Origin: Candidatus Omnitrophota bacterium
Lineage (GTDB): Bacteria; Omnitrophota; Gorgyraeia; Gygaellales; Profunditerraquicolaceae
NCBI GenBank assembly: GCA_041663665.1
Contig: JBAYMG010000001.1
Location: 1,482 to 65,481 of the forward strand
DNA length: 64,000 nucleotides
Direction of reading: 5' to 3'
A program made the position numbers and the translations under genes. Under the pieces are notes generated by a model that was given only the letters and a program-made list of their open reading frames with translations, was not told where the DNA came from and searched no databases. Positions 3,455 to 60,476 of this stretch are shown here, piece after piece. Position 1 is the stretch's first letter; the number at the start of each line of letters is the position of its first letter.

Positions 3455-3512
3455 CACGCCGCGCTTAAAGGAATTGCGCGGGTATGCCTTTTTGGGCAAG
3501 GAGAAAATTAAA

Positions 3513-4901
3513 ATGAGTAATACAGCTTCACAGATTAAGTTTGGTACTGATGGATGGAGAGCAATTATCGCCGACACTTATACTTTGGAAAATGTTAAAA
3601 TTTTAACTCAGGCAGTAGCTGATTACCTGGGTGCCGGAAAAAAAGTCGCAATTGGTTTTGATACACGTTTTATGTCGGAAAAATTTGCGTTAGCCTGCGC
3701 CATAGTTTTTAAAAGTAATAATATCGATGTAATTCTTTCTGACCGTCCCACGCCGACACCGGCGTTGAGCTTTGCGGTTAAATCGCTAAAGTTGGATTTA
3801 GGGATCATGATTACTGCTTCGCATAACCCGGCAGAATATAATGGTTTTAAAATTAAGAACTCAAGCGGAGGCGGGGCAAGCCAGGAGATAACCAAGGCAG
3901 TTGAGTTACTGATTAGCAAAACCCCGGTTAAAGAAAATGTTTTGGCCGGTTCAATTGCGAAAGTTGATATTATCAAAGATTACATAAAGTTTATCCGTAA
4001 TTATATTGATTTGAAGAGAATTAGAAATAAGAAGTTTAAAGTTTTGGTCGATTCGATGTATGGCTCAGGCGATAGTTTTATCGCTCAGGTACTTAAAGGC
4101 ACAAATATAAAATTAGAGTTTATGCGCAATACGATTAATCCATCTTTTGATGGCGGCAGGCCTGAACCGGTTGAAGAAAATTTAAGCGAACTTAAAGCCC
4201 GGGTTAAGAAAGAGAAATTCGATTTAGGTATTGCTCTTGATGGTGATGCCGACAGGATTGCTGCGGTTGCTCCCGGGGGAGTATTTATCCATCCGCAAAA
4301 AATCTTGGGCCTTTTAGCGCTGCATTTAAATCAAGACCGTCATTGGTCCGGCGGTTTAGTTAAAACTATTTGCGGATCTACGATGATGGATAATATCGCG
4401 CAATTTTTAGGAATTAAGCTTTATGAGACGCCGGTTGGTTTTAAATATATTTCTAACCTCATGGAAACTGAAAATATTGTTGCCGGGGGGGAAGAGGCAG
4501 GCGGTATGGGGGTAAAAGGGTACATTCCTGAGCGCGACGGGACTATGGCTGGCTTGCTTTTAATTGAAATGATGGTCTACCGTAACAAAAATATGTTAAA
4601 AATTTTAAATGAAACTGAAAAAAAGTTTGGTAAATTCTATTATGTGCGCCAGGATTTTCATTTGGATAAACGGGTTGAGCCAAAAAAAGAAAATCTGCCG
4701 AACATATTATTAGGCAAGCAGGTTGTGGATATCAAGGATTACGATGGGATAAAGCTTATCTGCGAAGACCAGAGCTGGTTAATGTTCCGCGGGTCAGGCA
4801 CTGAGCCGATTATGCGTTCCTATGCCGAGGCTAAAAGCCTTGCTCAAGCCCAAAAGCTATTAGCTTTAGGTAAGGAAATAATCTTAAAAGCAGGGGTATA
4901 A
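3513..4901 (+). CDS. phosphoglucomutase/phosphomannomutase (alpha-D-phosphohexomutase family)
   Basis: Contains GTDGWRA and the active-site phosphoserine loop TASHNP. I chose the ATG at 3513 because it follows an AGGAGA ribosome-binding site. Confidence 0.75.
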   Translation: MSNTASQIKFGTDGWRAIIADTYTLENVKILTQAVADYLGAGKKVAIGFDTRFMSEKFALACAIVFKSNNIDVILSDRPTPTPALSFAVKSLKLDLGIMITASHNPAEYNGFKIKNSSGGGASQEITKAVELLISKTPVKENVLAGSIAKVDIIKDYIKFIRNYIDLKRIRNKKFKVLVDSMYGSGDSFIAQVLKGTNIKLEFMRNTINPSFDGGRPEPVEENLSELKARVKKEKFDLGIALDGDADRIAAVAPGGVFIHPQKILGLLALHLNQDRHWSGGLVKTICGSTMMDNIAQFLGIKLYETPVGFKYISNLMETENIVAGGEEAGGMGVKGYIPERDGTMAGLLLIEMMVYRNKNMLKILNETEKKFGKFYYVRQDFHLDKRVEPKKENLPNILLGKQVVDIKDYDGIKLICEDQSWLMFRGSGTEPIMRSYAEAKSLAQAQKLLALGKEIILKAGV

Positions 4902-8733: not shown

Positions 8734-8771
8734 TATACATATAAAGATATGTATGATAGTATTGACATTAT

Positions 8772-10539: not shown

Positions 10540-11353
10540 AAATATCTTAATTCTGGGGAAAGGTTTTATTGGCCAGCGCCTGCAAAAAGAGTTTGGCTGT
10601 AAAATAGACGGCTCCTTGATAAATTGTTTTACGGACGCCTGGAAACTGGTTAAAAAATATAACCCTAAAATAATTATTAATTGCATCGGTACGACCGGTA
10701 AAAACAATGTTGACGGATGTGAACTGGAAAAGGATGCAACCTTGTTAGCGAACAGTTTTATTCCGGTCATATTAGCTGAGGCGGCCCTGCGCAATGATAT
10801 TAAGTTGGTACATATTTCAAGTGGTTGTATTTTTAATTTTGATTATAAAAAAGATAAACCGATTGAAGAATCCGGCCAGGATTATTTTTTTAAGTTGTTT
10901 TATAGCCGGAGCAAGATTTATTCTGAAAGAGCGCTTGAAGTATTGGCAAGAGACTATAATATTTTAATCGCCAGGATTAGAATTCCTTTGCTTAATGCCA
11001 AGCATCCTAAAAATGTCCTGGATAAACTTCTTAAATATAAAAAGGTTATTGATTTGCCTAATTCTGTAACCTATATTCCTGATTTCATCCAGGCAATCAA
11101 GCATTTGATAAAAATTGACGCCCGCGGAATTTATAACGTGGTCAATAGGGGCGGTTTGCGTTATCCTGAACTTATGAATATCTATCAGAAGTATGTTCCG
11201 GAATTTAAATATAAAGTTATTGATTTGGCCGAGATTGGTTTAGAGAGGACTAATTTGCTTTTGTCGACCAGTAAACTTGAGAAATCTGGTTTTAAAGTCA
11301 GGAATATTAACTCGGTGCTTGAAGAATGCGTAAAAGAATACCTAAAATCCTAG
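10532..11353 (+). CDS. rmlD: dTDP-4-dehydrorhamnose reductase (SDR fold)
   Basis: 273-aa Rossmann protein ([13 protein letters not shown]) sitting between rmlA and rmlB, with a C-terminal substrate-binding half like RmlD. Confidence 0.65.
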
Positions 11354-12348: not shown

Positions 12349-12364
12349 CGCGTTTTTTGGTTTA

Positions 12365-12420
12365 CTATATTTCTTCTGTAATTATTAGTTATTAAAAGGG
12401 TTACGTACACTGTCTACACT
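12365..12420 (+). repeat. ~60-bp IS-end-like repeat, solo copy D, ending 9 nt before the 12429 start codon
   Basis: ATTTCTTCTGTAATTATTAG...GGGTTACGTACACTGTCTACACT. Confidence 0.55.
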
Positions 12421-12428
12421 ACAAACAT

Positions 12429-13478
12429 ATGGCGATTGTGATTGTTACAGGTTCTTGCGGATTGGTTGGTTCAGAAACAGTTAGTTTCTTCGCGCAAAAA
12501 GGGTTTGATATCGTCGGTATTGATAACAATATGCGCCAAAGTTTTTTCGGCGCAGACGGCTCAACCTTTTGGAATCAAAAACGCCTTCAGAAACTGTACA
12601 AGAATTATCATCATTATTCCGTAGATATCCGCAATCAAAGTAAAATAAATTCCATATTTAAAAAATATAACAAAGACATAGCTTTGGTGGTGCATGCTGC
12701 TGCTCAGCCGTCTCATGATTGGGCGGCCAAAGACCCAGTAGTTGATTTTACCGTTAATGCCCAGGGTACATTAATTATGCTGGAAGCTTTTCGCCAATTT
12801 TGTCCTCAAGCCGTTTTTATTTTTACTTCAACCAATAAAGTTTACGGTGATACTCCTAATCGACTGCCGCTAGTTGAACAAGAAAAACGTTTTGAGATTT
12901 CTCCAGATCATCAATATGGTAAGGGTATAGACGAAGCAATGAGTATTGATCATTCTTTGCATTCAGTTTTTGGCGCTTCCAAGGCTGCTGCAGATATTAT
13001 GACTCAGGAATACGGAAAGTATTTTCATCTGCGTACCGGGATTTTCCGCGGCGGCTGTTTAACCGGGCCGGCGCATTCCGGAGCTGAGCTGCATGGATTT
13101 TTATCTTATTTTATCAAATGCGTGATTACCGGGCGCAAATATGTAATTTACGGCTATAAAGGCAAGCAGGTGCGCGACAATATTCATTCTTATGATTTGG
13201 TTAATGCCTTTTATCATTTTTTTAAATCACCGCGTTGCGGCGAAGTTTACAACATAGGCGGCGGCAGATTTGCTAATATTTCTATTTTAGAAGCAATTGA
13301 ACTTTGCCAGAAAATAACCGGCAAGAAACTAAATTTTGAATATATTGAAAGAAATCGCATTGGCGATCATATTTGGTGGATTTCAGATGTTTCTAAATTC
13401 AGGTCCCATTATCCTGATTGGAATTACAAATTTGGCATAGAGGAGACAATTAAACAGATATTTGATGCACAAGCATAA
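12429..13478 (+). CDS. NAD-dependent CDP-sugar epimerase (CDP-paratose/tyvelose 2-epimerase family, RfbE-like)
   Basis: Extended SDR protein whose motifs [11 protein letters not shown], DNxxRxxFFGxDG, [10 protein letters not shown] and [12 protein letters not shown] match the paratose-epimerase family. Confidence 0.6.
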
Positions 13479-13574: not shown

Positions 13575-14428
13575 ATGAAAAATAAAATTCTTGAAATAAC
13601 GTCCAGGGGTGAAATTGTCATCTATAGGGCTAAAAACAAAAAATACAGCTTGAGGTTAAACTGGAGCATGAGACTGTTTGGCTAACCCAAAAACAAATGG
13701 CTGATTTGTTTACTAAGAACATCCGAACAGTTAACGAACATATACAGAACGTATTTAAAGAAGTGGAGTTAAAGAAAAGTTCAGTTATCCGGAATTTCCG
13801 GATAACTGCCGCTGATGGTAAAAGTTATGAAACCAATTTTTATAATCTTGATGTAGTAATTTCGGTAGGTTATCGTATCAAATCTCAGAATGGCACTCGG
13901 TTTCGTATTTGGGCAACAAATGTTCTTAAACAGCATCTAATTGATGGATATACATTAAATGAGAAACGCCTAAAAGAACAAGCTCAAAAACTTCAGGCCT
14001 TACAGCGAGCAGTGAAGTTAATTAGCAGTATGAAAGATCGCAAGCAACTTGAATATAAAGAAGCTATGGGGTTGCTTGAAGTTATCAGCGACTACAATTA
14101 CGCGCTTGGATTGTTGGATGATTATGATTATAAGCGGCTCAAAATAAGCCAAATCTCTAAAAAGGAAAGGTTTATCTTAAGCTACAAGTTTGCAATAGAA
14201 GCCGTTAATAAGCTTAAAGAAAGAATTAGTAGTTCAAATCTTTTTGGTGTAGAGCGCGATAAATCATTTAAAAGTTCTGTATCCTCAATTTATCAAACAT
14301 TTGACGCAAAGGAATTATACCCAAGCATTGAAGAAAAAGCGGCGAATCTCCTTTATTTTATTTCAAAAATCATTCATTCGTTGATGGCAATAAGCGAATT
14401 GCAGCCTCGATATTTATATGGTTTTTAG
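13575..14428 (+). pseudogene. rhuM: RhuM-family (virulence/DNA-binding) gene with a frameshift in its N-terminal region; the intact ORF begins at 13697
   Basis: The ORF from 13697 carries the RhuM N-domain (ETVWLTQKQMADLF...IRNFRITAADGKSYETNFYNLDVVISVGYRIKSQNGTRFRIWATNVL). The expected first ~25 aa (MKNKILEITSRGEIVIYRAKNKK) lie in another frame, and the switch is at the A-rich tract at 13632-13643. Confidence 0.5.
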
Positions 14429-15446: not shown

Positions 15447-16196
15447 ATGAAAAACAAAAAATTTGATTATAGTTATGGTTGGGTTCCGGATGCTCCGGAC
15501 CAGAGGGATTTTCTGTACAAAGCGATTAAGCCTAAAGTGCGGTTAAAGAGGGAGGTAGATTTGAGCAATATTTGCTCGGCTGTTGAGCAGCAGGGCAGGC
15601 TTGGCAGCTGTACGGCACAAGCTTTGGCGGGGAATTTAGAATTTCTAGATAATAAGCTAGACGGTGGATATACGGATGTCAGCCGGTTGTTTATTTATTA
15701 TAATGAACGCATGTTGGCAGATACAATGGAGTATGATTCAGGTGCATCTTTACGCGATGGTATTAAAACGCTAAAAAATAACGGAGCTTGTGCTGAAAAG
15801 CTCTGGCCATATGTAATAAAGCGGTTTGATCAGGTGCCTCCGCTAAATTGCTACAAAGAGGCAAGGGAGCATAGGATTGTTTCCTATCATCGGCTTAAGG
15901 GGGTTCCAGAATTGTTAGCATGTCTGACTGAGGGGTATCCATTTGTATTTGGTTTTACAGTTTATGAAAGCTTTGGAAACGCTAAGGTAACCAAGACTGG
16001 AGTGGCCGAGATGCCTAAAAAGAATGAGCGCGTTGTTGGAGGGCATGCAGTAATGGCGGCAGGATATTCTCAAAAAGAGGAGCGATTTCTAGTGCGTAAT
16101 TCCTGGGGAAAAAAATGGGGTATGGAAGGTTATTTTACCATGCCGTTTAAGTACATAGAGACGCTGGCATCTGATTTTTGGACGATACGAAAATAA
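15447..16196 (+). CDS. papain-like cysteine peptidase (C1A family) without signal peptide or propeptide
   Basis: Catalytic triad contexts are present: QGRLGSCTAQAL (Cys), VGGHAVMAAGY (His) and NSWGKKWGMEGYF (Asn/Trp). Confidence 0.7.
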   Translation: MKNKKFDYSYGWVPDAPDQRDFLYKAIKPKVRLKREVDLSNICSAVEQQGRLGSCTAQALAGNLEFLDNKLDGGYTDVSRLFIYYNERMLADTMEYDSGASLRDGIKTLKNNGACAEKLWPYVIKRFDQVPPLNCYKEAREHRIVSYHRLKGVPELLACLTEGYPFVFGFTVYESFGNAKVTKTGVAEMPKKNERVVGGHAVMAAGYSQKEERFLVRNSWGKKWGMEGYFTMPFKYIETLASDFWTIRK

Positions 16197-16310: not shown

Positions 16311-17138
16311 ATGAAGGATACCAATATGAACCAATTAAATCAGCAAAATTGTGAAGAAATAGAGATCGATTTAAGGGAATATATAAATGTAATTATTAAG
16401 CACAAAGCTATAATTATAACCACATTCTTCTTATCAATTATTGTTGCTTTTATTCTTAGTTTTTTAAGCCCAAAAGTTTTCGAAACGCATGCCATTATAA
16501 GGCTTGGCAGCATTTCTACAGTATTAATCTCAAAACCTAATGCAATGGCAGAATTGCAGGGCCAAGGATTAATGAATTTAGTCTTGAAGGAAAACAATTT
16601 AAATAATGATAAGGGAGAATTTAGCTCAAAAAAAATATTAAAAGTAGAGGATACTAAAGATACAGAATTTCTTAAAATTACAGTAAGAAATTCTAGTCCT
16701 ATCTTATCCGAGACTATTTGTAATGCCATCGCCAGTAAGTTTGTTTCCGAAAAGAAAGAATTATTTAAGAAGAATATTTTATTTCTAAATGAGCAAATTA
16801 ATGAATTCCAAAAAAGATATCAAATAGTTGTAACCGAGATAGATAATTTTAATAAGAAAATATTAGATTTTACAGTGAATCCCAACTATCCTTTACTTCA
16901 GAATACTATAACTAATTATGAAAGTATTTGTTTTAGTTTAAGAGAAAGAGTCTTCTCACTTAAAGAACAAGAACTTAAATCTCAAGATTTTGAAGTCTTT
17001 GAGCCTGCAGTTATTCCAGGATTTGCTATAAAGCCAAGTGTGCGTAAAAATGTTGCTGTAGCCGGAGCGATTGGGTTAATTTTTAGTTTGTTTTTGGTTT
17101 TTATTATTGAATATTGGAGAAAACTAAATCAAAAATGA
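16311..17138 (+). CDS. wzz: polysaccharide chain-length determinant (Wzz/PCP family)
   Basis: TM helices at the N- and C-termini bracket a coiled-coil-rich periplasmic domain. The 3' end overlaps gmd (ATGA). Confidence 0.6.
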
Positions 17139-18277
17139 AAAAAGCTCTCATTACCGGTATAACTGGCCAAGATGGCTCATATTTAGCAGAATTTTTACTT
17201 TCTAAAGGCTATGAAGTTCATGGGATAAGACGGCGTGCCAGTACTTTTAATACTGGGCGAATCGATCATATATATGTGGATCCTCATGATCCTAACGCCA
17301 AGCTTTTTCTTCATTTTGGTGATTTATCCGATGCCGAACAAATTAATGATTTAGTTTACAATATCAAGCCGGATGAAATTTATCATTTAGCTGCCCAGTC
17401 TCATGTGCGTGTGAGTTTTGATATTCCTGAATATACCGGTAATGTTACAGCTCTGGGTACTGTTCGTATTTTGGAAGCCATCCGTCGTAGCGGACACAAA
17501 ATAAAATTCTATCAAGCGTCCAGCAGTGAAATGTTTGGCGCAGCTCCTGCTTCGCAATCCGAAGCTACTGCTTTTCAACCACAAAGCCCGTATGCTTGCG
17601 CAAAAGTTTATGCCTATTGGATGGTAAAAAACTATCGCGAAGGTTATGGGCTTTTTGCTTGCAATGGCATTCTTTTTAATCATGAAAGCCCCCGCAGAGG
17701 TGAGACGTTCGTTACAAGAAAAATTACTCGTGGCCTGGCTGGTATAATTTCTGGTAAGCAAAAGAAACTTTATCTAGGTAACTTAGAGGCAAAACGCGAT
17801 TGGGGTTTTGCTCCAGAGTATGTCGAGATGATGTGGTTAATGCTTCAACAGAATAAACCCGATGATTATGTTGTTGGCACGGAGGAAACTCACTCGGTTA
17901 AGGAATTTGTTCAAAAAACTTTTGAATATGCAGGAATAAAAATCTCTTGGCAAGGTAAGGGTGTTGAAACCAGAGGGATTATTGAGTCTTTGAGTTTACA
18001 TCTGCAAAGATCTGCATTTTTAAAAAAAGGAGATACTGTCATTGAAGTTGATCAGCGATATTTTAGGCCTAATGAAGTAGATTGTTTGTGCGCAGATATC
18101 GCTAAAGCGAAAAAGCAGCTTCATTGGCAACCAAAAGTTAAATTTGATAGCCTGGTTAAAATTATGGTTGATTATGATTTAAGTGCTGCCGGGATTGAGC
18201 CCCCAGGTGAAGGGGTTAAAATTTATAAACAAAAAGAATTTAGTTTTTTATCAGAAGATTTTTGTGTTAAAGGGTAG
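17135..18277 (+). CDS. gmd: GDP-mannose 4,6-dehydratase
   Basis: [37 protein letters not shown] and [20 protein letters not shown] are canonical Gmd motifs. Confidence 0.9.
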
Positions 18278-18280
18278 CCA

Positions 18281-19537
18281 ATGTTTAAAGAAATTAAAAA
18301 ATGTCTAATCTGTGGTAATAAAAATTTAGTACCAATTCTTAATTTAGGCATGCAATCTTTAACAGGCGTGTTCCCAAAACGGAAAAATATGCTGGTTGAG
18401 CAAGGTCCATTGCAATTGGTAAAATGTGAAGAAGGTCGTAATGGAAAAAATTGTGGTTTAGTTCAGATGCGACATATTTATGATTCAAGGAATTTATATG
18501 GGGAAACATATGGGTACCGCTCGGGTCTAAATGATTCGATGGTTAAGCATTTACACCTTAAAGTAAAACGAATTTTAAAAAAAGTAAAACTGAGTCCTAG
18601 GGATGTTGTGATTGATATTGGTAGTAATGATAGTACCCTTTTACAGGGCTATTCTGGTAAAACTCTTAGACTTTTTGGTATAGATCCGCTTGGTGAGAAA
18701 ATGCGTAAATACTATCCTTCTCATATTCATTTGGTTGCAGATTTTTTTAATAAGAAAGTATTAGAGCAATACATTGGTTCTCAAAAAGCAAAGATTATTA
18801 CCTCTATATCAATGTTTTATGATTTGGCGGATCCACTTGCGTTTATGCAACAGGTTTATGAATTATTATCAGATAATGGCGTGTGGGTTTTTGAACAAAG
18901 CTATATGCCGACAATGCTTGCGATGAATTCATATGATACGGTTTGTCATGAACATTTGGAATACTACCGTTTAAAACAAATTAAGTGGATGACTGATCGG
19001 GTGGGATTTAAAATTATTGATGTGGAATTTAATAAGATTAATGGAGGCAGTTTCTCAGTGATGGTCGCTAAGCAGGGTTCTTCTTACTGTGAGGCCCAGG
19101 TTCTTGTATCGCGAATTTTAAAAACCGAAGAGAAGCTGGGATTAGATACGCTGGCACCGTATCGGGCTTTCCGGAAAAAAGTATCGCAGCATAAGAAAAA
19201 GTTTCAAATACAAATTCGGAAACTAAATAAAAGCGGAAAAAAAGTTTTTGGATATGGTGCTTCTACTAAAGGTAATGTTATTTTGCAGTACTGTGGTTTA
19301 AGGGAAAAGGATATTCCCTTTATTGCTGAAGTTAATGTAGATAAATTTGGTGCTTATGCTCCTGGTACTCGAATTCCGATTATTTCGGAGCAAGATGCAA
19401 AAGCTATGAAGCCGGATTACTTTGTAGTCTTGCCTTGGCATTTTAAGGATAATATAATTTTGCGCGAAAAAAGGTTCTTAAAGGAAGGCGGGAAACTATT
19501 GTTTCCTTTGCCGTACCAGGAAGTCGTGAAATCATGA
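18281..19537 (+). CDS. SAM-dependent sugar methyltransferase with N-terminal Zn-ribbon (TylC3/TcaB9-like C-methyltransferase architecture)
   Basis: N-terminal CLICGN...C Zn-ribbon followed by a class I methyltransferase core (VVIDIGSNDS) and a C-methyltransferase-like C-terminal domain. 418 aa. Confidence 0.5.
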   Translation: MFKEIKKCLICGNKNLVPILNLGMQSLTGVFPKRKNMLVEQGPLQLVKCEEGRNGKNCGLVQMRHIYDSRNLYGETYGYRSGLNDSMVKHLHLKVKRILKKVKLSPRDVVIDIGSNDSTLLQGYSGKTLRLFGIDPLGEKMRKYYPSHIHLVADFFNKKVLEQYIGSQKAKIITSISMFYDLADPLAFMQQVYELLSDNGVWVFEQSYMPTMLAMNSYDTVCHEHLEYYRLKQIKWMTDRVGFKIIDVEFNKINGGSFSVMVAKQGSSYCEAQVLVSRILKTEEKLGLDTLAPYRAFRKKVSQHKKKFQIQIRKLNKSGKKVFGYGASTKGNVILQYCGLREKDIPFIAEVNVDKFGAYAPGTRIPIISEQDAKAMKPDYFVVLPWHFKDNIILREKRFLKEGGKLLFPLPYQEVVKS

Positions 19538-20505
19538 AGCGAGCGATTATTGTTGGCGTTGGTGGTCAAGATGGTCAATTACTTTATGAGTTGTTAACGA
19601 AGAACCGGTATTTGGTGATAGGAATTGATAAAAATAAAATTCAATCTTCTTTCAAAGTTTTATTTAAGCAAGTTAATATTTTGAATTTTATTGATGTCGC
19701 GAATCTTATTAAGAAATTTCAGCCTCAGGAGGTTTATTATTTAGCGGCTTTTCATCATTCAGCAGAAGATTTACCAATTGAAAATGCTGAACTTTTGCAA
19801 CGTAGTTATAATGTCCATGTTGTTGGACTTGTGAATTTTTTAGAAGCCATAAAAAAATTCTCTCTAAAATCGCGGATTTTTTATGCAGCTTCATCACATA
19901 TTTTTGGTGAGACAAAAAATGATATTCAGGATGAAGATACGCCGATTAATCCTAACGGTCTGTATGGCATTACTAAGGCGACTGGGCTAGCTCTTTGTAG
20001 ATTTTATCGCTCTAATTATGATATTTTTGTTTCGGTAGGCATACTTTATAATCATGAATCTGCTTTTCGGACTGGAAATTTTGTTTCTATGAAAATCATT
20101 CAAGGAGCGATTAATATCAAAAAAGGGAAACAAAAGCAACTATTTCTTGGGGATTTGGATGCGGTAATTGACTGGGGGTATGCTCTGGATTATGTTCGGG
20201 CGATGCATCTTACGCTAAAAAGCAGGAAGCCCGATGATTTTATTATTGCTACAGGTAAGCGACATACAGTTTTGGATTTTATTAAAGTAGTTTTTAAAAC
20301 ACTTCAATTGGACTGGAAGTTATATATTAAAGAGGATGGCTCTATTGTGCGTAAACAGAGTTTTTATCGTATTGGTAATTCTGCTAAATTAAGAACTAGC
20401 ACTGGGTGGGGGCCCGAATTTAGTTTTAAAGAAATGATAAATAGGATGATAGAAATGAATTTGGAAAAGTTTTCGCTTAATTCAAAGAACAAAATTAAAA
20501 GGTGA
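19534..20505 (+). CDS. Gmd-paralogous SDR, probable GDP-4-keto-6-deoxyhexose reductase (Rmd/Gts-like)
   Basis: Carries GQDG and a Gmd-like C-terminal half (ILYNHESAFRTGNFVSMKII...LGDLDAVIDWGYALDYV) but lacks a dehydratase-type N-terminus. Confidence 0.5.
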   Translation: MKRAIIVGVGGQDGQLLYELLTKNRYLVIGIDKNKIQSSFKVLFKQVNILNFIDVANLIKKFQPQEVYYLAAFHHSAEDLPIENAELLQRSYNVHVVGLVNFLEAIKKFSLKSRIFYAASSHIFGETKNDIQDEDTPINPNGLYGITKATGLALCRFYRSNYDIFVSVGILYNHESAFRTGNFVSMKIIQGAINIKKGKQKQLFLGDLDAVIDWGYALDYVRAMHLTLKSRKPDDFIIATGKRHTVLDFIKVVFKTLQLDWKLYIKEDGSIVRKQSFYRIGNSAKLRTSTGWGPEFSFKEMINRMIEMNLEKFSLNSKNKIKR

Positions 20506-20507
20506 GA

Positions 20508-21485
20508 ATGAATAAAACAGTTTTAGTAACAGGTGCCGGAGGTTTTATTGGCAGTCATTTAGCTGAGAAATTATCTTCTTCCGGATACAGGGTAAAGGCT
20601 TTTGTGCATTATAACTCCAAGAATTCCTGGGGCTGGCTGGACGCATCTAAATGTAAAGAACGCATAGAAGTAATTTCTGGCGATATTAGGGATGCGGATA
20701 TTGTCCGGTATGCGATGCGTGATGTTGAAATAGTTTTTCATCTTGCCGCTTTAATTGGTATTCCTTATTCATATCATTCTCCCGAAGCTTACGTTGATAC
20801 AAATATTAAAGGAACTTTAAATATCTTGCAGGCAGCAAAAGATTTGGGTGTTAAGAAGACTGTCATTACATCTACTAGTGAAATTTACGGCACTGCTCAG
20901 TTTGTCCCAATTACCGAAGCTCATCCGATTAATCCCCAATCTCCATATGCAGCAACTAAATCCGCCGCAGATCTTCTTGCGCTGTCTTTTTACCGGTCTT
21001 TTAATTTACCCGTAGCTATTGTCCGGCCTTTTAATACTTATGGACCGAGGCAGTCTGCGCGGGCGGTTATCCCTACGATTATTACTCAGATACTTAATGG
21101 TAAAAAAAAGATAAAACTTGGGGTGATATCTCCTACCCGTGATTTAACCTACGTAGAAGATACGGTTAATGGGTTTATCTGTGCAGGTAAATGCCCGAAA
21201 TCAGTAGGAGAAATTATTAATCTTGGCACTCATTCAGAAATTTCAATTGGTGACTTAGCTCGGTTGATTTCTAAATATCTTAATAAAAATATAGAAATTG
21301 AATCTGAAAAAGATCGAAAAAGGCCGGTCAAGAGTGAAGTTGAGCGGTTGATGGCGGATAATACTAAAGCCAAGCGGATATTGAATTGGGCTCCAGAATA
21401 TAGCTTAGAAAAAGGCCTAAAGATGACGATTGAATGGTTTAAGAAAAATAAAGATATCTATAAATCAGAAATTTATAACGTGTAG
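20508..21485 (+). CDS. legB: NAD-dependent nucleotide-sugar 4,6-dehydratase (LegB-like)
   Basis: Extended SDR (VTGAGGFIGSHL, YAATKSAADLL) immediately upstream of a legC-ptmE-legH-legI-legG run. Confidence 0.55.
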   Translation: MNKTVLVTGAGGFIGSHLAEKLSSSGYRVKAFVHYNSKNSWGWLDASKCKERIEVISGDIRDADIVRYAMRDVEIVFHLAALIGIPYSYHSPEAYVDTNIKGTLNILQAAKDLGVKKTVITSTSEIYGTAQFVPITEAHPINPQSPYAATKSAADLLALSFYRSFNLPVAIVRPFNTYGPRQSARAVIPTIITQILNGKKKIKLGVISPTRDLTYVEDTVNGFICAGKCPKSVGEIINLGTHSEISIGDLARLISKYLNKNIEIESEKDRKRPVKSEVERLMADNTKAKRILNWAPEYSLEKGLKMTIEWFKKNKDIYKSEIYNV

Positions 21486-21490
21486 GTGTT

Positions 21491-22663
21491 ATGAAAAATA
21501 TCCCACTTTCTGTGCCTAATTTAAACGGTAGAGAATTGCAGTACATTAAAAAATGCATTGATACTAATTGGATTTCTTCTTCCGGCAAGTTCGTTGTCGA
21601 TTTTGAAGATAAAATCTGTAAATATACTAAAGCTAAATTTGCTGTTGCTTGTGTAAATGGCACATCCGGTTTACACATTGCTTTAAAGGTTTGCGGTGTT
21701 TCCAGGGGTGATGAAGTTATCGTCCCGACTCTTACGTTTATTGCTCCGGTTAATGTAGTTAAATATGTAGGAGCTGAGCCGGTTTTTATGGATTGTGATA
21801 ATTATATGAACATTGATCCTGTTAAGCTGCGGGAATTTTGTTCTAAGGAATGCCGAATTACAAGATCGGGTTTAAAAAATAAAAGAACAGGAAGGATTAT
21901 CCGGGCGGTAATTCCAGTCCATATTTTCGGCAATCCTTGTGACATGGAAGAAATTATGAGTATTGCCCGGCAATATCATTTTAAAGTAATTGAAGATGCA
22001 ACTGAGAGCCTGGGTTCGTATTACACAAGAGGAGCCTATAAAAATAAATTTACCGGTACGGTATCTGATGTTGGAGTTTATTCATTTAATGGCAATAAGA
22101 TAATTACTGCCGGCGGCGGCGGGATGATTGTGACGAATAGCAGGGTCATGTCGGATAAAGCCAGGTATTTGACTAATCAGGCTAAAGATGATCCTGTGAG
22201 GTATATTCATAATGAAATTGGGTATAATTTCCGTTTGACCAATTTACAGGCGGCACTGGGTTTGGCGCAGCTAGAGCAGTTAAAAGGTTTTATTAAAACT
22301 AAGAAGTATAATTATGAATTATATAAAAAGCTTTTAAGTGGCATTCGTGGAATTAATATACTGGATCTCCCAGCAGGTACTGCTCCGAATTATTGGTTCT
22401 ATTCGTTGATTATGGAAAAAAATGAATTTGGTATGAACAGAGATGGTGTTATGGAACATTTACAAACAAAAGGCATCCAAGCAAGGCCGGTATGGTATTT
22501 GAATCATCTTCAGAAGCCGTTTAGAAAGAACCAATCATATAAAATTGAGAAAGCGGCGTGGTTTTGGGAAAGAGTTTTAAATTTTCCTTGTAGTACAAAT
22601 TTAGAAATAAAGCAGGTAAAATATATAGTTTCAGTAATTCGAAATTTACACGGAAATAACTAA
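21491..22663 (+). CDS. legC: DegT/DnrJ/EryC1-family PLP aminotransferase (LegC-like)
   Basis: DegT-fold protein with the catalytic Lys context YSFNGNKIITAGGGG. Confidence 0.7.
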   Translation: MKNIPLSVPNLNGRELQYIKKCIDTNWISSSGKFVVDFEDKICKYTKAKFAVACVNGTSGLHIALKVCGVSRGDEVIVPTLTFIAPVNVVKYVGAEPVFMDCDNYMNIDPVKLREFCSKECRITRSGLKNKRTGRIIRAVIPVHIFGNPCDMEEIMSIARQYHFKVIEDATESLGSYYTRGAYKNKFTGTVSDVGVYSFNGNKIITAGGGGMIVTNSRVMSDKARYLTNQAKDDPVRYIHNEIGYNFRLTNLQAALGLAQLEQLKGFIKTKKYNYELYKKLLSGIRGINILDLPAGTAPNYWFYSLIMEKNEFGMNRDGVMEHLQTKGIQARPVWYLNHLQKPFRKNQSYKIEKAAWFWERVLNFPCSTNLEIKQVKYIVSVIRNLHGNN

Positions 22664-22667
22664 TACT

Positions 22668-23726
22668 ATGGAAAAACTTAAGAAGATACTTATAAATCCT
22701 GAGCAAGCTATTAAACATGTTTTAAAGCACATGGATGCAGTTGGAGAGAAAACCATGTTTGTGGTTGATAAAGAAAATAAGCTTTTAGGTACCGTTACAG
22801 ATGGTGATATCAGGAGATGGATATTAAAGGGGAGAAGTTTATTGGATAATGTCTCAAGCGTTATGAATTGTAAGCCGATAAGCTTAAGCAAGGAGTTCAA
22901 ACAGGAGCAAGCTAAAGTAGTAATGATTAAGAAGGAGCTTGGGTGTTTGCCGGTTATAGATAATGAAGGGAGTGTTGTTTCTGCTGTTTGGTGGGTGGAT
23001 CTTTTTAAAAATAAGTTAAAGAAGCAGAAATCTCTAAAATTACCTGTAGTGATTATGGCCGGAGGTGAAGGCGCCCGTTTACACCCCTTTACTAAGATTC
23101 TTCCTAAGCCATTGATGCCAATAGGTGATAAGCCGATTATCGAATTAATTATAAATAAATTTTTTGATTATGGCTGCCAAGATTTTTACCTCTCTTTGAA
23201 TTATAAATCTAATATAATTAAAGCATACTTCAGCGATTTTGAGCATAAATATAAAATCAATTATATTTTAGAGAATAAGCCTTTAGGCACAGCGGGAAGC
23301 CTGCATTTTCTAAAGAATAGGATCAAAAAGACATTTTTTGTTAGTAACTGCGATATTCTTATTGAGGCAGATTACGCGGATATATTAAAATTCCATCACC
23401 AGCGGAAGAATAAAATTACTTTGGTTAGTTCAATGAAAAATTTCACTATTCCTTATGGTGTATGTAAAATTCAAAATGGTGGAATTTTAAAGAATATCCG
23501 GGAAAAGCCGGAATATGATTTTTTAGTTAATACCGGTATGTATATTTTGGAAGCATCAGTTCTTGTAGATATACCCAGGAATCAATTCTATGATATAACT
23601 GATCTTATAAATGATTATCTTAAAAAAGGCGAAAAAATCGGCGTTTATCCTGTTTCGGAAAAATCATGGCTGGATATGGGGCAGTTTGAGGCTCTTCAGG
23701 AAACATTGAAAAAATTTGAGGTTTAA
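22668..23726 (+). CDS. ptmE: CBS-domain sugar-phosphate nucleotidyltransferase (PtmE-like GlcN/GlcNAc-1-P guanylyltransferase)
   Basis: Tandem N-terminal CBS domains followed by an NTP-transferase domain (VVIMAGGEGARLHPFTKILPKPLMPIGDKP). Confidence 0.65.
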   Translation: MEKLKKILINPEQAIKHVLKHMDAVGEKTMFVVDKENKLLGTVTDGDIRRWILKGRSLLDNVSSVMNCKPISLSKEFKQEQAKVVMIKKELGCLPVIDNEGSVVSAVWWVDLFKNKLKKQKSLKLPVVIMAGGEGARLHPFTKILPKPLMPIGDKPIIELIINKFFDYGCQDFYLSLNYKSNIIKAYFSDFEHKYKINYILENKPLGTAGSLHFLKNRIKKTFFVSNCDILIEADYADILKFHHQRKNKITLVSSMKNFTIPYGVCKIQNGGILKNIREKPEYDFLVNTGMYILEASVLVDIPRNQFYDITDLINDYLKKGEKIGVYPVSEKSWLDMGQFEALQETLKKFEV

Positions 23727-23735
23727 GCTAATTTT

Positions 23736-24383
23736 ATGAAACATAAAATATTACTTATTGGGGCAGGCGGGCATTGTAAGGTAATTTTGGATTTGTTTTT
23801 ACAGATTAAGAAATATGAGATATCCGGTATACTTGATTTGAAAGAGAATCTGGGTAATAAGATTCTGGGAGTTTCGGTTATTGGTACTGATGCAGATTTG
23901 CCGCGTTTTTTTAAAACAGGTATTAAATATTGTTTTATTTCAGTAGGAAGCGTAGGTAATCCCCGTTTGCGTATTAAATTGTATAATTTTGCTAAGCAGT
24001 CAGGGTTTTTGTTTCCGAATTTAATCAGCCCTAATGCTCAGGTGTCTTCGCATGTTATTCTGGGAGAAGGTAACTATATTGCCCCGGGAGTAATTATAAA
24101 TGCCGGAACTCAAATCGGCAATAATTGTATTCTTAATACCGGAGCAATTATTGAGCATGATTGTAAGATCGGTAATTTTGTTCATCTTTCTCCGGGGTCA
24201 GTGTTAAGCGGCGGCGTAAACATAGGTGATAATTGTCATGTTGGGACCGGAAGCGTAGTAATTCAGGGTGTTCAGATTGCCGGGCAAACGATTATCGGAG
24301 CTGGAAGCGTGGTTACGAAAAACATTCTTAAAGGAATGATTGCTTACGGCAATCCGTGTAAAGAAAGAAGAACAAATGGATAA
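23736..24383 (+). CDS. legH: NeuD/PglD-family hexapeptide N-acetyltransferase (LegH-like)
   Basis: N-terminal Rossmann-like KILLIGAGGHCKV followed by left-handed beta-helix hexapeptide repeats. Confidence 0.7.
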   Translation: MKHKILLIGAGGHCKVILDLFLQIKKYEISGILDLKENLGNKILGVSVIGTDADLPRFFKTGIKYCFISVGSVGNPRLRIKLYNFAKQSGFLFPNLISPNAQVSSHVILGEGNYIAPGVIINAGTQIGNNCILNTGAIIEHDCKIGNFVHLSPGSVLSGGVNIGDNCHVGTGSVVIQGVQIAGQTIIGAGSVVTKNILKGMIAYGNPCKERRTNG

Positions 24384-28251: not shown

Positions 28252-28252
28252 A

Positions 28253-30843: not shown

Positions 30844-30847
30844 AATA

Positions 30848-38693: not shown

Positions 38694-39608
38694 ATGCGCA
38701 TAACTAAGAATAGTGAGCTTGTTTTAACAGCTGAGTTTAAAAAAACTATCGCTAAAATAGTTAATGATTCTTTAGATAAGAATGCAATCGACGGCGCATG
38801 GCTTACTAATGCCGATCGTTTGTGCCGGAAAATTTTAACCTGTGATCCCGGGGATTTCCTGCAATGGGATGTGATCCTTAGAACAATGGTTGTTGGTAAC
38901 GCTAATTTTGTCCGCGATGAGTTAGATTTTCTCCAGGCTCTTCCTGATTGGGAAAGTCGGTGGAAAGACGCCATTGAAGAATCTTCAGTGGGTAATCCAA
39001 CCTATTACGATGAGTTTCCTTCTAGTAGCGGAAATCTAATCCATCTTGCTTACCATCTGGCGCAGTTTGAGAAGAAAACGGGAATAGATATTAACCGCGC
39101 GGGTTTTATTCTCGAATTTGGCGGCGGTTATGGGGGCATGTGCAGGTTAATCCATAAATTGAATTTTAAAGGCAGGTATATTATTTTTGATCTGCCGCCC
39201 TTGTCCGCCTTGCAGCATTTTTTTATTAATATGAATGGTATACCGGTCGGGTATTATAATAAATTTCTGGAAAAAGATTCAAACGGGGTAATTTGTGTGT
39301 CTGATTTTGCGCATTTAGGAGCCGTTGTTTCTGATTATCCGAACATTGATAATGCCGTATTTCTTGCAACCTGGTCGCTGAGCGAGACGCCGATCAGTTT
39401 GCGGCAGTCTATTTTATCTCTGGTAGAACCATTTAAAGCTTTTCTCCTCGCATACCAGGGATATTTCGGTAATATAGACAATTCAGGATTTTTTTTAGAA
39501 TGGGCTGATGCGATGAATGATATTGAATGGCATAGCTGGAAAATCAAACATCTGCCAAATAAATTATACCGGGATAACTATTATCTGATGGGGAAGAGAA
39601 TATGTTGA
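38694..39608 (+). CDS. hypothetical protein, possible SAM-dependent methyltransferase
   Basis: Contains a motif-I-like EFGGGYGGMCRL, but no other confident motifs. Confidence 0.3.
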   Translation: MRITKNSELVLTAEFKKTIAKIVNDSLDKNAIDGAWLTNADRLCRKILTCDPGDFLQWDVILRTMVVGNANFVRDELDFLQALPDWESRWKDAIEESSVGNPTYYDEFPSSSGNLIHLAYHLAQFEKKTGIDINRAGFILEFGGGYGGMCRLIHKLNFKGRYIIFDLPPLSALQHFFINMNGIPVGYYNKFLEKDSNGVICVSDFAHLGAVVSDYPNIDNAVFLATWSLSETPISLRQSILSLVEPFKAFLLAYQGYFGNIDNSGFFLEWADAMNDIEWHSWKIKHLPNKLYRDNYYLMGKRIC

Positions 39609-40561
39609 AAGTGAGGAACCCAATGGATAAAAAAGATCGCGTATACGTTGCTGGCCATAGAGGTATGCTGGGATCAGCGATCGTGCGTTTACTCAAGAAA
39701 AATGGGTTCGAGAATCTTATTTTATGTAGTCATCGGGAACTTGATTTGAGAGATTTTCGTGCGGTTAAAAATTTCTTCGTGGCGCAAAATCCGGAAATAG
39801 TTATTCTTGCAGCAGCACGGGTCGGGGGGATCCAGGCGAACCTTGAGCATCCCGCGGAATTTCTCTATGACAATCTGGCAATCCAGAATAATGTAATACA
39901 GCAATCATTCTTGAATAAAATCAAAAAGTTTTGTTTCGTTGGCAGTTCCTGCATTTACCCGCGTGAATGTCCACAGCCCATGAAAGAACAGTATTTGCTA
40001 ACGGGGTTGTTAGAGCCGACAAATGAGGGGTACGCGCTGGCAAAGATCGCCGGACTGAAGATGGTTGAATATTACCGCAGGCAATACGCTTTTGGCGGAA
40101 TCAGCGTTATGCCCTGTAATTTGTACGGCACCAATGATAGTTTCGACCCTTTGCACTCGCATGTGCTGGCTGCCCTTATCAGGAAATTTGTTAACGCTGT
40201 AGACACAGGAACAGAAAATGTTACCGTTTGGGGTACAGGTTCGGCAAGGCGGGAGTTTATGCATGTAGATGACGCCGCTCAAGCTATTCTTTTTCTGATG
40301 GATAATTATAATGAACCTGAATTCATTAATATCGGCTGGGGCATCGATATTTCGATCCGTGATTTAGTGGAATTTATAGCCCGAAAGACAGGCTATAAAG
40401 GCTCTATAAATTGGGATACCGCAAAGCCCGATGGAATGCCGCGTAAATGCCTGGATGTTTCAAGGTTAAATGCTTTGGGATATACTCCAAAAATATCATT
40501 AGAAGACGGAATAAAGAAGACGATAGAAGAATATAAAACAGTAGCTTTGCCACTAAAGTAA
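39602..40561 (+). CDS. fcl: GDP-L-fucose synthase family enzyme (Fcl / ColC-like 3,5-epimerase-4-reductase)
   Basis: VYVAGHRGMLGSAI, AAARVGGIQAN and VGSSCIYP are Fcl/WcaG family motifs. Confidence 0.7.
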   Translation: MLKVRNPMDKKDRVYVAGHRGMLGSAIVRLLKKNGFENLILCSHRELDLRDFRAVKNFFVAQNPEIVILAAARVGGIQANLEHPAEFLYDNLAIQNNVIQQSFLNKIKKFCFVGSSCIYPRECPQPMKEQYLLTGLLEPTNEGYALAKIAGLKMVEYYRRQYAFGGISVMPCNLYGTNDSFDPLHSHVLAALIRKFVNAVDTGTENVTVWGTGSARREFMHVDDAAQAILFLMDNYNEPEFINIGWGIDISIRDLVEFIARKTGYKGSINWDTAKPDGMPRKCLDVSRLNALGYTPKISLEDGIKKTIEEYKTVALPLK

Positions 40562-60475: not shown

Positions 60476-60476
60476 A

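What the first reader, a model, noticed from the sequence alone, without database searches (positions are those of the whole stretch)
17135..20505. gmd followed by a Zn-ribbon C-methyltransferase-like enzyme and a Gmd paralogue: possible GDP-linked 3-C-methyl-6-deoxyhexose branch
Gmd makes GDP-4-keto-6-deoxymannose. The next gene has the TylC3/TcaB9 architecture of keto-sugar C-methyltransferases, which normally act on dTDP sugars. The third gene is a Gmd-like reductase lacking the dehydratase-type N-terminal region. Together they would make a GDP-3-C-methyl-6-deoxyhexose. C-methyl branched hexoses are rare in LPS.
Basis: inference. Interest (0 to 1): 0.55.

Follow-up and report, generated by a model that had tools for sequence, protein, structure and literature searches.

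The report
GDP-sugar C-methylation module: Gmd, methyltransferase, reductase
Three tightly packed genes in a large surface-polysaccharide cluster of an uncultured Omnitrophota bacterium most likely build a rare methyl-branched 6-deoxy sugar on GDP. The same cassette is widespread in bacteria but has never been tested biochemically.

Summary
Window 17135-20505 holds three translationally coupled genes:
- a full-length TylC3/TcaB9-type sugar C-methyltransferase (MT);
- a Gmd paralogue (GmdL) that keeps the Rossmann motif, Tyr/Lys and the NHES motif, but has His in place of the catalytic Glu.

- In 80 related genomes from many phyla, 51 have a Gmd-family gene directly next to the MT. In 36 of these it is a Glu-less GmdL immediately downstream.
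- Relatives add ManC/PMM.
- In some relatives the GmdL slot is filled by a bona fide Rmd reductase (Azospirillum) or by an aminotransferase.

The most likely product is a GDP-6-deoxy-3-C-methyl-D-hexose, possibly GDP-D-evalose. The stereochemistry is unknown.

Caveats:
- All solved relatives use dTDP-sugars.
- MT homologues only 45-47% identical, with the same active-site residues (D181/C222), sit in dTDP contexts. GDP use therefore rests on synteny alone.
- The idea is not new: it was proposed in silico for Coxiella virenose in 2011-2012 and remains untested.

Verdict: a new variant of a known kind, of moderate interest.

The parts
17135..18277 (+). [quoted passage not shown] It supplies GDP-4-keto-6-deoxy-D-mannose.
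   Evidence: TIGR01472 at 548 bits, above the 415 cut-off. Motifs SSSEMFG and YACAK are present. The ATG at 17135 overlaps the Wzz stop codon. Gene callers give 380 aa.
18281..19537 (+). MT, a TylC3/TcaB9-type NDP-4-ketohexose C-methyltransferase with three domains: Zn ribbon, SAM domain and C-terminal nucleotide-sugar domain.
   Evidence: Pfam PF08421, PF13489 and PF08484. PDB matches are MtmC 1e-51 and TcaB9 3e-41. AF2 pLDDT 91 with TM 0.91 to 4RV9. Invariant residues are C8/C11/C49/C58, Y77, D181 and C222-H223-E224-H225.
19534..20505 (+). GmdL, a Glu-less Gmd paralogue and the predicted NAD(P)H-dependent GDP-4-keto-sugar 4-reductase. Public records annotate it as GDP-mannose 4,6-dehydratase.
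   Evidence: TIGR01472 at 204 bits, below the 415 cut-off. It has S120-S121-H122 where Gmd has T/S-x-E, and keeps Y144/K148 and N173-H-E-S. This type lies immediately downstream of the MT in 36 of 80 loci. Source annotations are shown.
16311..17138 (+). Wzz-like chain-length determinant, overlapping the Gmd start. It marks the module as part of a surface-polysaccharide operon.
   Evidence: Pfam Wzz. The same Wzz-Gmd arrangement occurs in the closest relative, L085.
39602..40561 (+). Fcl-like GDP-L-fucose synthase, a second likely consumer of the Gmd product. It is not part of the C-methyl module.
   Evidence: NF047922 at 430 bits (cut-off 500). It has the GSSCIYP motif, and an Fcl-like gene is found near the MT in only 1 of 80 loci. 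A GT11 fucosyltransferase-family gene lies at 34828-35637.
3474..4901 (+). Phosphoglucomutase/phosphomannomutase, a possible upstream supplier of mannose-1-phosphate. No ManC is present in the window.
   Evidence: Pfam PGM_PMM domains I-III.

Best explanation
The three genes form a cassette that diverts GDP-mannose into a methyl-branched 6-deoxyhexose for the polysaccharide encoded by the surrounding ~50-kb cluster, which carries Wzx- and Wzy-like genes.

Step 1 (family assignment shown, activity inferred). Gmd converts GDP-D-mannose to GDP-4-keto-6-deoxy-D-mannose.

Step 2 (inferred). The MT binds this keto-sugar. The Glu224/His225 pair removes the C3 proton next to the 4-keto group, and the enolate takes a methyl group from SAM. 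This is the chemistry of TylC3 and TcaB9.

Step 3 (inferred). GmdL reduces the 4-keto group with NAD(P)H. GmdL kept the cofactor fold, the Ser/Tyr/Lys residues and Gmd's conserved NHES and DWG motifs. It lost the Glu that Gmd needs for 5,6-dehydration.

Product. A GDP-6-deoxy-3-C-methyl-D-hexose. This would be GDP-3-C-methyl-D-rhamnose (D-evalose) if the C3 configuration is retained, or an altro/ido isomer if it is inverted as reported for TylC3. An unidentified glycosyltransferase of the cluster then adds the sugar to the polymer. The Gmd product probably also feeds a separate Fcl/GT11 fucose branch.
For: Family assignments.

Translational coupling of Wzz-Gmd-MT-GmdL-LegB.

Synteny in 80 species-level genomes from Omnitrophota, Planctomycetota, Bacteroidota, Patescibacteria, Acidobacteriota, Verrucomicrobiota, Cyanobacteria, Proteobacteria and others:
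- 36 have a Glu-less GmdL immediately after the MT (Glu position is H in 19, L in 16, K in 1);
- 19 have a Glu-type Gmd immediately before the MT;
- 7 have all three genes contiguous.

Six have a verified Glu-type Gmd within 3 kb. A seventh has an adjacent 350-aa Gmd-family gene for which no DNA was available.

GDP-mannose supply genes (ManC, PMM) lie in the same clusters in L087, L094, Phyllobacterium zundukense and Azospirillum oryzae.

The slot after the MT is filled by a true Rmd in A. oryzae (PDB 2PK3 1.5e-46). In L084 and L087 it is filled by a DegT aminotransferase, with a formyltransferase as well in L084. These are alternative ways to process a 4-keto group.

In one Omnitrophota cluster (L093), a D181/C222-type MT sits by GmdL, while a second, TcaB9-signature paralogue sits by a cupin epimerase.

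3-C-methyl-D-rhamnose is a known LPS sugar in Phyllobacterium trifolii and Burkholderia andropogonis. A Phyllobacterium plasmid carries this MT type in a PMM-ManC-Gmd/rhamnan-synthesis cluster.
Against: No biochemical data exist for any member.

Every structurally characterised family member uses a dTDP-sugar.

Homologues 45-52% identical with identical active-site residues (Y77, D181, C222, H223, E224, H225) lie next to rfbA/rfbB/NDP-hexose 2,3-dehydratase or rfbC-like genes in actinomycete natural-product regions. Nucleotide preference therefore cannot be read from the MT sequence.

The window itself also encodes RmlA/RmlB and an RfbF/RfbG-like pair. Other NDP-4-keto-6-deoxyhexoses are therefore available.

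Of the 36 MT-GmdL pairs, 29 have no Glu-type Gmd within 6 kb. Two have none within 10 kb.

No ManC and no dedicated glycosyltransferase were identified in the window.

The site of methylation (C3 versus C5) and the stereochemistry are not determined.
Confidence: 0.65

Rival explanations
1. The MT works on a dTDP- or CDP-linked 4-keto-6-deoxyglucose made by RmlA/RmlB (9673-12348) or the RfbF/RfbG-like pair (57973-59738). Gmd and GmdL then simply make GDP-D-rhamnose around it, and the gene order is coincidental.
For: All solved relatives are dTDP-sugar enzymes. MT homologues 45-47% identical, with identical active-site residues, sit beside rfbA/rfbB and a 2,3-dehydratase. rmlA and rmlB in the window score as true equivalogs.
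Against: The MT is wedged between two GDP-family SDR genes, with a 3-nt gap on one side and a 4-nt overlap on the other. In 51 of 80 relatives a Gmd-family gene is adjacent, while a credible RmlA/RmlB pair lies within 6 kb in only one. ManC-MT-Rmd in Azospirillum contains no rml genes.
Confidence: 0.1
2. MT and GmdL form a self-sufficient two-gene unit. GmdL, a Gmd that cannot dehydrate, oxidises GDP-mannose at C4. The MT methylates C3, and GmdL reduces C4 again. The product is GDP-3-C-methyl-D-mannose, which is not 6-deoxy and is the sugar found in atypical Helicobacter pylori O-antigen.
For: Of 36 MT-GmdL pairs, 29 have no Glu-type Gmd within 6 kb. L093 and L094 have none within 10 kb, although L094 has ManC and PMM. 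GmdL keeps the redox residues and lacks only the dehydration base. 3-C-methyl-D-mannose exists in nature.
Against: The window and 7 of 80 loci have a Glu-type Gmd contiguous with the pair. Six of the nine loci viewed at +/-10 kb have a verified Glu-type Gmd within 3 kb, and a seventh probably does. A true Rmd, which reduces a 4-keto-6-deoxy sugar, replaces GmdL in Azospirillum. The scheme requires release of a 4-keto intermediate from an SDR, and I know of no precedent for that in this family.
Confidence: 0.08
3. The pathway is GDP-linked as proposed, but the MT methylates C5 rather than C3. NovU does this in noviose biosynthesis (from memory). The product would be a 5-C-methyl (gem-dimethyl) 6-deoxyhexose.
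For: Both C3-H and C5-H are acidic next to a 4-keto group. From memory, the family contains C5-methyltransferases. No regiochemical determinant was tested here.
Against: The nearest homologues with interpretable context lie in macrolide or 2,6-dideoxysugar gene sets typical of C3-methylation. All solved relatives are C3 enzymes. The known LPS branched 6-deoxyhexoses found here are 3-C-methyl.
Confidence: 0.05
4. GmdL is not the 4-ketoreductase. It could be an inactive or structural partner of Gmd, a 4-epimerase, or a residual dehydratase. Reduction would then be done by the MT itself (MtmC is described as a bifunctional methyltransferase/ketoreductase) or by another SDR of the cluster.
For: The best PDB match of the MT is MtmC, which PMC3539893 cites as having 4-ketoreductase activity. 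The residue replacing Glu in GmdL is not conserved (H, L or K), so it has no new catalytic role. Some loci have the MT but no GmdL.
Against: GmdL keeps an intact cofactor motif, Ser/Tyr/Lys and NHES, invariant across 23 homologues. It is the single most frequent neighbour of the MT. It is interchangeable with Rmd or an aminotransferase in the same position.
Confidence: 0.07

Closest known systems
TylC3/EryBIII-type dTDP-4-keto-2,6-dideoxyhexose 3-C-methyltransferases (mycarose pathway)
   Same: Same three-domain family. Actinomycete homologues in macrolide or deoxysugar gene sets are 45-47% identical and share Y77, D181, C222, H223, E224 and H225 with the window MT. The chemistry is presumed to be the same: SAM-dependent methylation alpha to a 4-keto group.
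   Different: Those enzymes sit with rfbA/rfbB and 2,3-dehydratase genes (dTDP, 2-deoxy sugars). The window MT and its >=52%-identical relatives sit with Gmd, GmdL, ManC and Rmd. TylC3 and EryBIII themselves could not be retrieved, so this relationship is inferred from context.
TcaB9, KijD1 and MtmC (solved sugar C3-methyltransferases)
   Same: Same full-length fold (TM 0.83-0.92), four-Cys zinc site and SAM motif. TcaB9 Tyr76, Glu224 and His225 are conserved.
   Different: Only 25-28% identical. TcaB9 His181 and Tyr222, both probed by mutagenesis, are Asp and Cys here. The second zinc knuckle has a 6-residue insertion. All three solved enzymes bind dTDP-sugars.
Gmd-Rmd pathway to GDP-D-rhamnose
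   Same: Starts with the same Gmd step and ends with a 4-ketoreduction by an extended SDR. In Azospirillum oryzae a true Rmd follows this MT type.
   Different: A C-methylation step is inserted between the two. The reductase here is not an Rmd orthologue (2PK3 E 1e-17) but a Gmd-derived paralogue (1RPN E 4e-52) that has lost the catalytic Glu.
Proposed Coxiella burnetii virenose pathway (CBU_0689 Gmd, CBU_0691 TylCIII-like MT, CBU_0688 Fcl-like)
   Same: Same concept: GDP-4-keto-6-deoxymannose is methylated by a TylC3-like enzyme inside an O-antigen region (PMC3539893, PMC3204966). It was still described as not fully characterised in 2026.
   Different: The last enzyme proposed there is an Fcl-type epimerase/reductase. 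Here it is GmdL. The window's Fcl-like gene is 19 kb away and has the canonical Fcl motif. Orthology of the MT with CBU_0691 was not tested.

Membership tests
TylC3/TcaB9-type NDP-4-ketohexose C-methyltransferase | Three-domain architecture: N-terminal Zn-binding domain, class I SAM domain and C-methyltransferase C-terminal domain | tested here: met
   PF08421 at 46 bits, PF13489 at 51 bits and PF08484 at 172 bits, all above their cut-offs. The AF2 model (pLDDT 91) superposes on 4RV9, 3NDI and 5T67 over ~417-426 columns with TM 0.83-0.92.
TylC3/TcaB9-type NDP-4-ketohexose C-methyltransferase | Four cysteines ligating zinc | tested here: met
   C8, C11, C49 and C58 are invariant in 28 homologues. 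They align with the TcaB9 and MtmC cysteine pairs.
TylC3/TcaB9-type NDP-4-ketohexose C-methyltransferase | Residues probed by mutagenesis in TcaB9: Tyr76, Glu224, His225 | tested here: met
   These align with Y77, E224 and H225, which are invariant in the subfamily. The mutant names appear in the PDB titles.
TylC3/TcaB9-type NDP-4-ketohexose C-methyltransferase | TcaB9 sugar-pocket residues His181 and Tyr222 | tested here: not met
   They are Asp181 and Cys222 here. The same pair occurs in homologues from dTDP contexts, so it marks a clade and not a different nucleotide.
TylC3/TcaB9-type NDP-4-ketohexose C-methyltransferase | dTDP-linked substrate | tested here: inconclusive
   Synteny points to GDP.
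TylC3/TcaB9-type NDP-4-ketohexose C-methyltransferase | SAM-dependent C-methylation of a 4-keto sugar | not testable with these tools
   This needs an enzyme assay.
GDP-mannose 4,6-dehydratase (TIGR01472), gene 1 | Score above the equivalog cut-off, with catalytic S/T-x-E and YxxxK motifs | tested here: met
   548 bits against a cut-off of 415. SSSEMFG and YACAK are present.
GDP-mannose 4,6-dehydratase (TIGR01472), gene 3 | Score above the equivalog cut-off, with the catalytic Glu | tested here: not met
   204 bits against a cut-off of 415. The Glu is replaced by His122, and by H, L or K in 36 orthologous neighbours of the MT. The public annotation as Gmd is therefore doubtful.
Rmd (GDP-6-deoxy-D-lyxo-4-hexulose reductase), gene 3 | Sequence orthology to characterised Rmd (2PK3, 6X3B) | tested here: not met
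   E 1.3e-17 and 2.6e-12, against 3.7e-52 for Gmd 1RPN.
Rmd (GDP-6-deoxy-D-lyxo-4-hexulose reductase), gene 3 | Same pathway position as a 4-ketoreductase acting after Gmd | tested here: met
   In A. oryzae the gene directly after this MT type is a true Rmd (2PK3 1.5e-46).
Rmd (GDP-6-deoxy-D-lyxo-4-hexulose reductase), gene 3 | NAD(P)H-dependent reduction of a GDP-4-keto sugar | not testable with these tools
   This needs an enzyme assay.
Coxiella virenose-type gene set | Gmd and a TylC3-like MT together in an O-antigen region | tested here: met
   The Coxiella gene set is described in PMC3539893.
Coxiella virenose-type gene set | Fcl-type epimerase/reductase as the partner enzyme | tested here: not met
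   The partner here is GmdL. An Fcl-like gene lies near the MT in only 1 of 80 loci.
Coxiella virenose-type gene set | Orthology of the MT to CBU_0691 | not tested

The most novel reading that the evidence does not exclude
MT and GmdL are a self-contained two-enzyme device. GmdL, a Gmd that has lost only its dehydration base, oxidises GDP-mannose at C4 without removing the 6-hydroxyl. It hands the keto-sugar to the methyltransferase and then reduces it back. The product is GDP-3-C-methyl-D-mannose. This would be a new way to make a branched hexose without 6-deoxygenation, and it would explain the orphan Helicobacter pylori sugar. It is not excluded, because most MT-GmdL pairs have no dehydratase-competent Gmd within 6 kb and two have none within 10 kb.
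Probability: 0.08. Interest if true: 0.7.

Novelty: new variant of a known kind. Interest (0 to 1): 0.45.

Why it matters
Methyl-branched 6-deoxyhexoses occur in bacterial surface polysaccharides. Examples are virenose in Coxiella and 3-C-methyl-D-rhamnose in Phyllobacterium and Burkholderia andropogonis. I found no experimentally assigned biosynthetic genes for any of them in the literature I could search. The virenose route was still called not fully characterised in 2026.

This cassette gives a concrete, testable three-enzyme route. Cultured, non-pathogenic sources exist: Anaeroselena agilis, Azospirillum oryzae and Phyllobacterium zundukense.

The work also indicates two further points.
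- A large set of genes annotated as GDP-mannose 4,6-dehydratase lack the catalytic Glu and are probably reductases.
- The genes for such sugars occur across many phyla, including Patescibacteria and Omnitrophota. These sugars may be less rare than the chemical record suggests.

Tried and rejected
1. I first treated D181/C222 (TcaB9 H181/Y222) as a possible marker of GDP specificity. I rejected this. The same residues occur in Streptomyces griseofuscus and Pseudonocardia homologues that sit next to rfbA, rfbB and a 2,3-dehydratase.

2. I considered the Fcl-like SDR as part of the core module, because it lies between Gmd and the MT in L085 and L087 and recalls Coxiella CBU_0688. I rejected this. 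The window copy has the canonical GSSCIYP motif and lies 19 kb away. Only 1 of 80 loci has an Fcl-like gene near the MT.

3. I looked in the window for an orthologue of the GT2 that follows GmdL in L083, L085, L086 and L088. None was found at E 1e-5, and those GT2s are not conserved among themselves.

4. I tried to read the TcaB9 and Gmd/Rmd structure papers by DOI or PMC id. They are not held. The identity of the residues probed in TcaB9 comes from PDB entry titles. Their role in sugar binding is from my memory of the abstracts.

5. One literature search was wasted on ambiguous terms.

6. No paper describing a biochemically characterised GDP-sugar C-methyltransferase was found.

7. The CBU_0691, TylC3, NovU, Robbsia andropogonis and P. 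trifolii sequences could not be obtained.

Full report
**What is in the sequence**

The window comes from a Candidatus Omnitrophota metagenome-assembled genome. The MT protein is 100% identical to an NCBI entry on a 280-kb contig.

From about 9.7 kb to at least 59.7 kb, all genes lie on the + strand and form one large surface-polysaccharide cluster.

The finding's coordinates hold three genes.

- Gene 1, 17135-18277. It reaches 548 bits on the NCBIfam equivalog model for GDP-mannose 4,6-dehydratase, whose cut-off is 415.
- Gene 2, 18281-19537. It has the three Pfam domains of sugar C-methyltransferases: Methyltransf_13, Methyltransf_23 and Methyltransf_14. No NCBIfam model matches it.
- Gene 3, 19534-20505. 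It is Gmd-like but reaches only 204 bits on the same Gmd model.

The genes are packed as in a translationally coupled operon.

- The Wzz stop overlaps the Gmd start (ATGA).
- Three bases separate Gmd and the MT.
- The MT stop overlaps the GmdL start (ATGA).
- The GmdL stop overlaps the LegB start (GTGA).

**The methyltransferase**

Against all PDB sequences, the only hits are MtmC (1e-51), TcaB9 (3e-41) and KijD1 (2e-39). Each aligns over residues 5-416.

An AlphaFold2 model built on 28 homologues has mean pLDDT 91. It superposes on those three enzymes with TM-scores of 0.83-0.92. The next best matches are O-, N- and other methyltransferases, which cover only the SAM domain at TM about 0.3.

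Residue-level comparison gives the following.

- Four cysteines (C8, C11, C49, C58) are invariant in the subfamily.
- TcaB9 Tyr76, Glu224 and His225 align with Y77, E224 and H225. The PDB titles show these residues were probed by mutagenesis.
- TcaB9 His181 and Tyr222 are Asp181 and Cys222 here.

At first that pair looked like a possible signature of a different substrate. It is not. Homologues 45-47% identical carry the same six residues, and they lie next to dTDP-pathway genes.

- In Streptomyces griseofuscus the homologue lies near rfbB, a P450 and a macrolide-type glycosyltransferase.
- In Pseudonocardia it lies near rfbA, rfbB and an NDP-hexose 2,3-dehydratase.

The window MT therefore belongs to a clade that also contains dTDP-sugar enzymes. 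From their context these are probably the TylC3/EryBIII type. The MT sequence alone does not reveal the nucleotide.

**The third gene**

GmdL is 29% identical to the neighbouring Gmd. It is much closer to P. aeruginosa Gmd (1RPN, 4e-52) than to the characterised reductases Rmd (2PK3 at 1e-17, 6X3B at 3e-12).

What it keeps:

- GxxGQDG;
- the Tyr-x-x-x-Lys pair;
- the Gmd-typical NHES and DWG motifs. These are invariant in 23 homologues.

What it has lost:

- At the position of the Gmd catalytic Glu (P. aeruginosa T126, E128, Y150, K154, as listed in PMC3539893) it has Ser-Ser-His.
- It lacks the loop that carries the 'RR' arginines.

Across 36 orthologues that follow the MT, the Glu position is His in 19, Leu in 16 and Lys in 1. 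The common feature is loss of the base, not gain of a new one. This fits an enzyme that can still move a hydride at C4 but cannot dehydrate. Public records nevertheless name it GDP-mannose 4,6-dehydratase.

**Evidence from other genomes**

One scan of 185,579 species-representative genomes confirmed at least 595 relatives. The 80 best, at 52-61% identity, come from many phyla.

I called ORFs in each locus and compared them with the window proteins.

- 36 loci have a Glu-less GmdL starting within a few bases of the MT stop.
- 19 loci have a Glu-type Gmd ending just before the MT start.
- 4 loci have both, which is the window's arrangement.
- 3 more loci have the order MT-GmdL-Gmd.
- In all, 51 of 80 loci have a Gmd-family gene directly adjacent to the MT.
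- A credible RmlA/RmlB pair lies within 6 kb in only one locus.

Other neighbours are mostly glycosyltransferases and methyltransferases.

I viewed nine further loci at +/-10 kb, chosen only for long contigs.

- Six have a Glu-type Gmd within 3 kb that I verified, and a seventh probably does.
- Two (L093, L094) have none, although L094 has ManC and PMM.

**Variations on the theme**

- Azospirillum oryzae has the order ManC-MT-X. X is a true Rmd (2PK3 1.5e-46), and gmd lies further along.
- In L084 and L087 the MT is followed by a DegT aminotransferase, with a formyltransferase as well in L084, and there is no GmdL. This parallels the perosamine-type fate of GDP-4-keto-6-deoxymannose.
- In L093 a D181/C222-type MT sits beside GmdL. 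A second paralogue with the TcaB9 motif FDQIYDEH sits beside a cupin epimerase and three other SDRs.
- A Phyllobacterium zundukense plasmid carries this MT type (49.6% identical, same motifs). The cluster also has PMM, ManC, a short Glu-type Gmd, a 'rhamnan synthesis F' gene and an ABC transporter.
- The O-polysaccharides of Phyllobacterium trifolii contain 3-C-methyl-D-rhamnose, according to the title of Zamlynska et al. 2015 as cited in PMC5644692.
- The same sugar (evalose), with an axial methyl group, was found in Burkholderia andropogonis LPS (PMC7203242).

**Most likely mechanism**

1. Gmd makes GDP-4-keto-6-deoxy-D-mannose.
2. The MT methylates the carbon next to the keto group, using SAM.
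3. GmdL reduces the keto group.

The product is a GDP-6-deoxy-3-C-methyl-D-hexose.

What is shown:

- the family assignments;
- the residue pattern;
- the gene coupling;
- the cross-phylum synteny.

What is inferred:

- the GDP substrate of the MT;
- C3 as the site of methylation;
- the reductase role of GmdL;
- the sugar's configuration.

PMC3539893 reports inversion at C3 for TylCIII. Evalose would need retention. I therefore leave the stereochemistry open.

The window also has an Fcl-like gene with the canonical GSSCIYP motif and a GT11-family gene. The Gmd product is therefore probably shared with a fucose branch.

**Rivals**

- A dTDP or CDP substrate is possible. The window encodes RmlA/RmlB and an RfbF/RfbG-like pair, and close homologues work in dTDP contexts. 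Synteny argues against it.
- A two-enzyme, redox-neutral route to non-deoxy 3-C-methyl-mannose is not excluded by the loci that lack Gmd. It is disfavoured by the Rmd replacement and by the contiguous Gmd in the window.
- C5 methylation cannot be excluded without an assay.
- A non-reductase role for GmdL also cannot be excluded without an assay.

**Novelty**

The concept is already in the literature. GDP-4-keto-6-deoxymannose methylated by a TylC3-like enzyme was proposed in silico for Coxiella virenose (PMC3204966, PMC3539893). A 2026 preprint still calls that pathway not fully characterised.

I found no report of a characterised GDP-sugar C-methyltransferase. No such structure appears among the PDB matches.

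What is new here:

- recognition of a widespread MT plus Glu-less Gmd paralogue cassette;
- the probable misannotation of that paralogue;
- the link to D-rhamnan-type clusters in cultured bacteria.

I rate it a new variant of a known kind, of moderate interest.

Noticed in passing
window 20502-28969: A complete legionaminic-acid-type gene set lies directly downstream. It comprises LegB (TIGR04180, 495 bits), LegC (TIGR04181, 485 bits), a CBS-domain nucleotidyltransferase, a NeuD/PglD acetyltransferase, NeuB, Epimerase_2, a PtmA-like SDR, a GFO/IDH/MocA oxidoreductase and a CMP-sugar synthetase. The same pairing of the MT module with Leg genes recurs in L084 and L085.
   Followed up: partly
window 35634-37631 and 50493-51932: Two B12-binding radical SAM enzymes lie inside the polysaccharide cluster. 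Similar genes occur near the MT in L086, L094 and the P0066 contig. They may methylate unactivated carbons of the glycan. Their function was not examined.
   Followed up: no
window 33635-34831, 34828-35637, 39602-40561: An RfbH/ColD-like PLP enzyme (213 bits, below cut-off), a GT11 fucosyltransferase-family gene and an Fcl-like GDP-fucose synthase (430 bits, cut-off 500; GSSCIYP motif). They suggest an additional fucose or 3,6-dideoxyhexose branch drawing on the same Gmd.
   Followed up: partly
window 9673-13478: rmlA and rmlB are true equivalogs, but the 'rmlD' between them is very weak (47 bits, cut-off 224). No rmlC was seen, and a fourth SDR follows. The same four-gene block occurs in L085. 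It probably makes a dTDP-6-deoxyhexose other than L-rhamnose.
   Followed up: partly
window 15447-16196: A papain-family cysteine protease (Peptidase_C1) lies just upstream of Wzz in the polysaccharide cluster, after an unannotated 256-aa ORF. The pair is conserved in the second contig, L002. This is unusual for such a cluster.
   Followed up: no
window 8005-9306 and 13697-14428: An IS200-type Y1 transposase, a BrnT-like toxin with a small partner ORF, and a RhuM-family gene flank or interrupt the start of the cluster. They hint at mobility or recombination at its edge.
   Followed up: no
window 29986-31543: A HisF-like/HisH-like (glutamine amidotransferase) pair lies after the Leg genes. Two such pairs occur in the Anaeroselena agilis cluster (L083). 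From memory, pairs like this are linked to amidino modification of amino sugars. This was not tested.
   Followed up: no
window 57973-62414: An RfbF/RfbG-like pair (nucleotidyltransferase plus 4,6-dehydratase-like SDR) is followed by an MBL-fold protein, a DmpF-like acetaldehyde dehydrogenase and a DmpG/HMGL-like aldolase. This is an odd combination at the end of a glycan cluster.
   Followed up: no
L093 14944-19455 (Omnitrophota GCA_016201795): A second C-methyltransferase paralogue with the TcaB9 motif FDQIYDEH lies next to a cupin sugar epimerase and three SDRs. It is in the same cluster as a D181/C222-type MT-GmdL pair. One cluster therefore probably makes two different C-methyl sugars.
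   Followed up: partly
L084 11280-13733 and L087 11407-14001: Here the MT is followed by an aminotransferase instead of GmdL. L084 also has NUDIX and formyltransferase genes, and L087 has extra methyltransferases. This suggests 4-amino-4,6-dideoxy-3-C-methyl sugars, possibly N-formylated or N-methylated, made on GDP.
   Followed up: partly
L099 5055-8583 (Leisingera caerulea plasmid): Three consecutive paralogues of this methyltransferase family (about 31% identical to the window MT, TcaB9-like H181/Y222) lie next to rfbF (CDP-glucose pathway).
   Followed up: no
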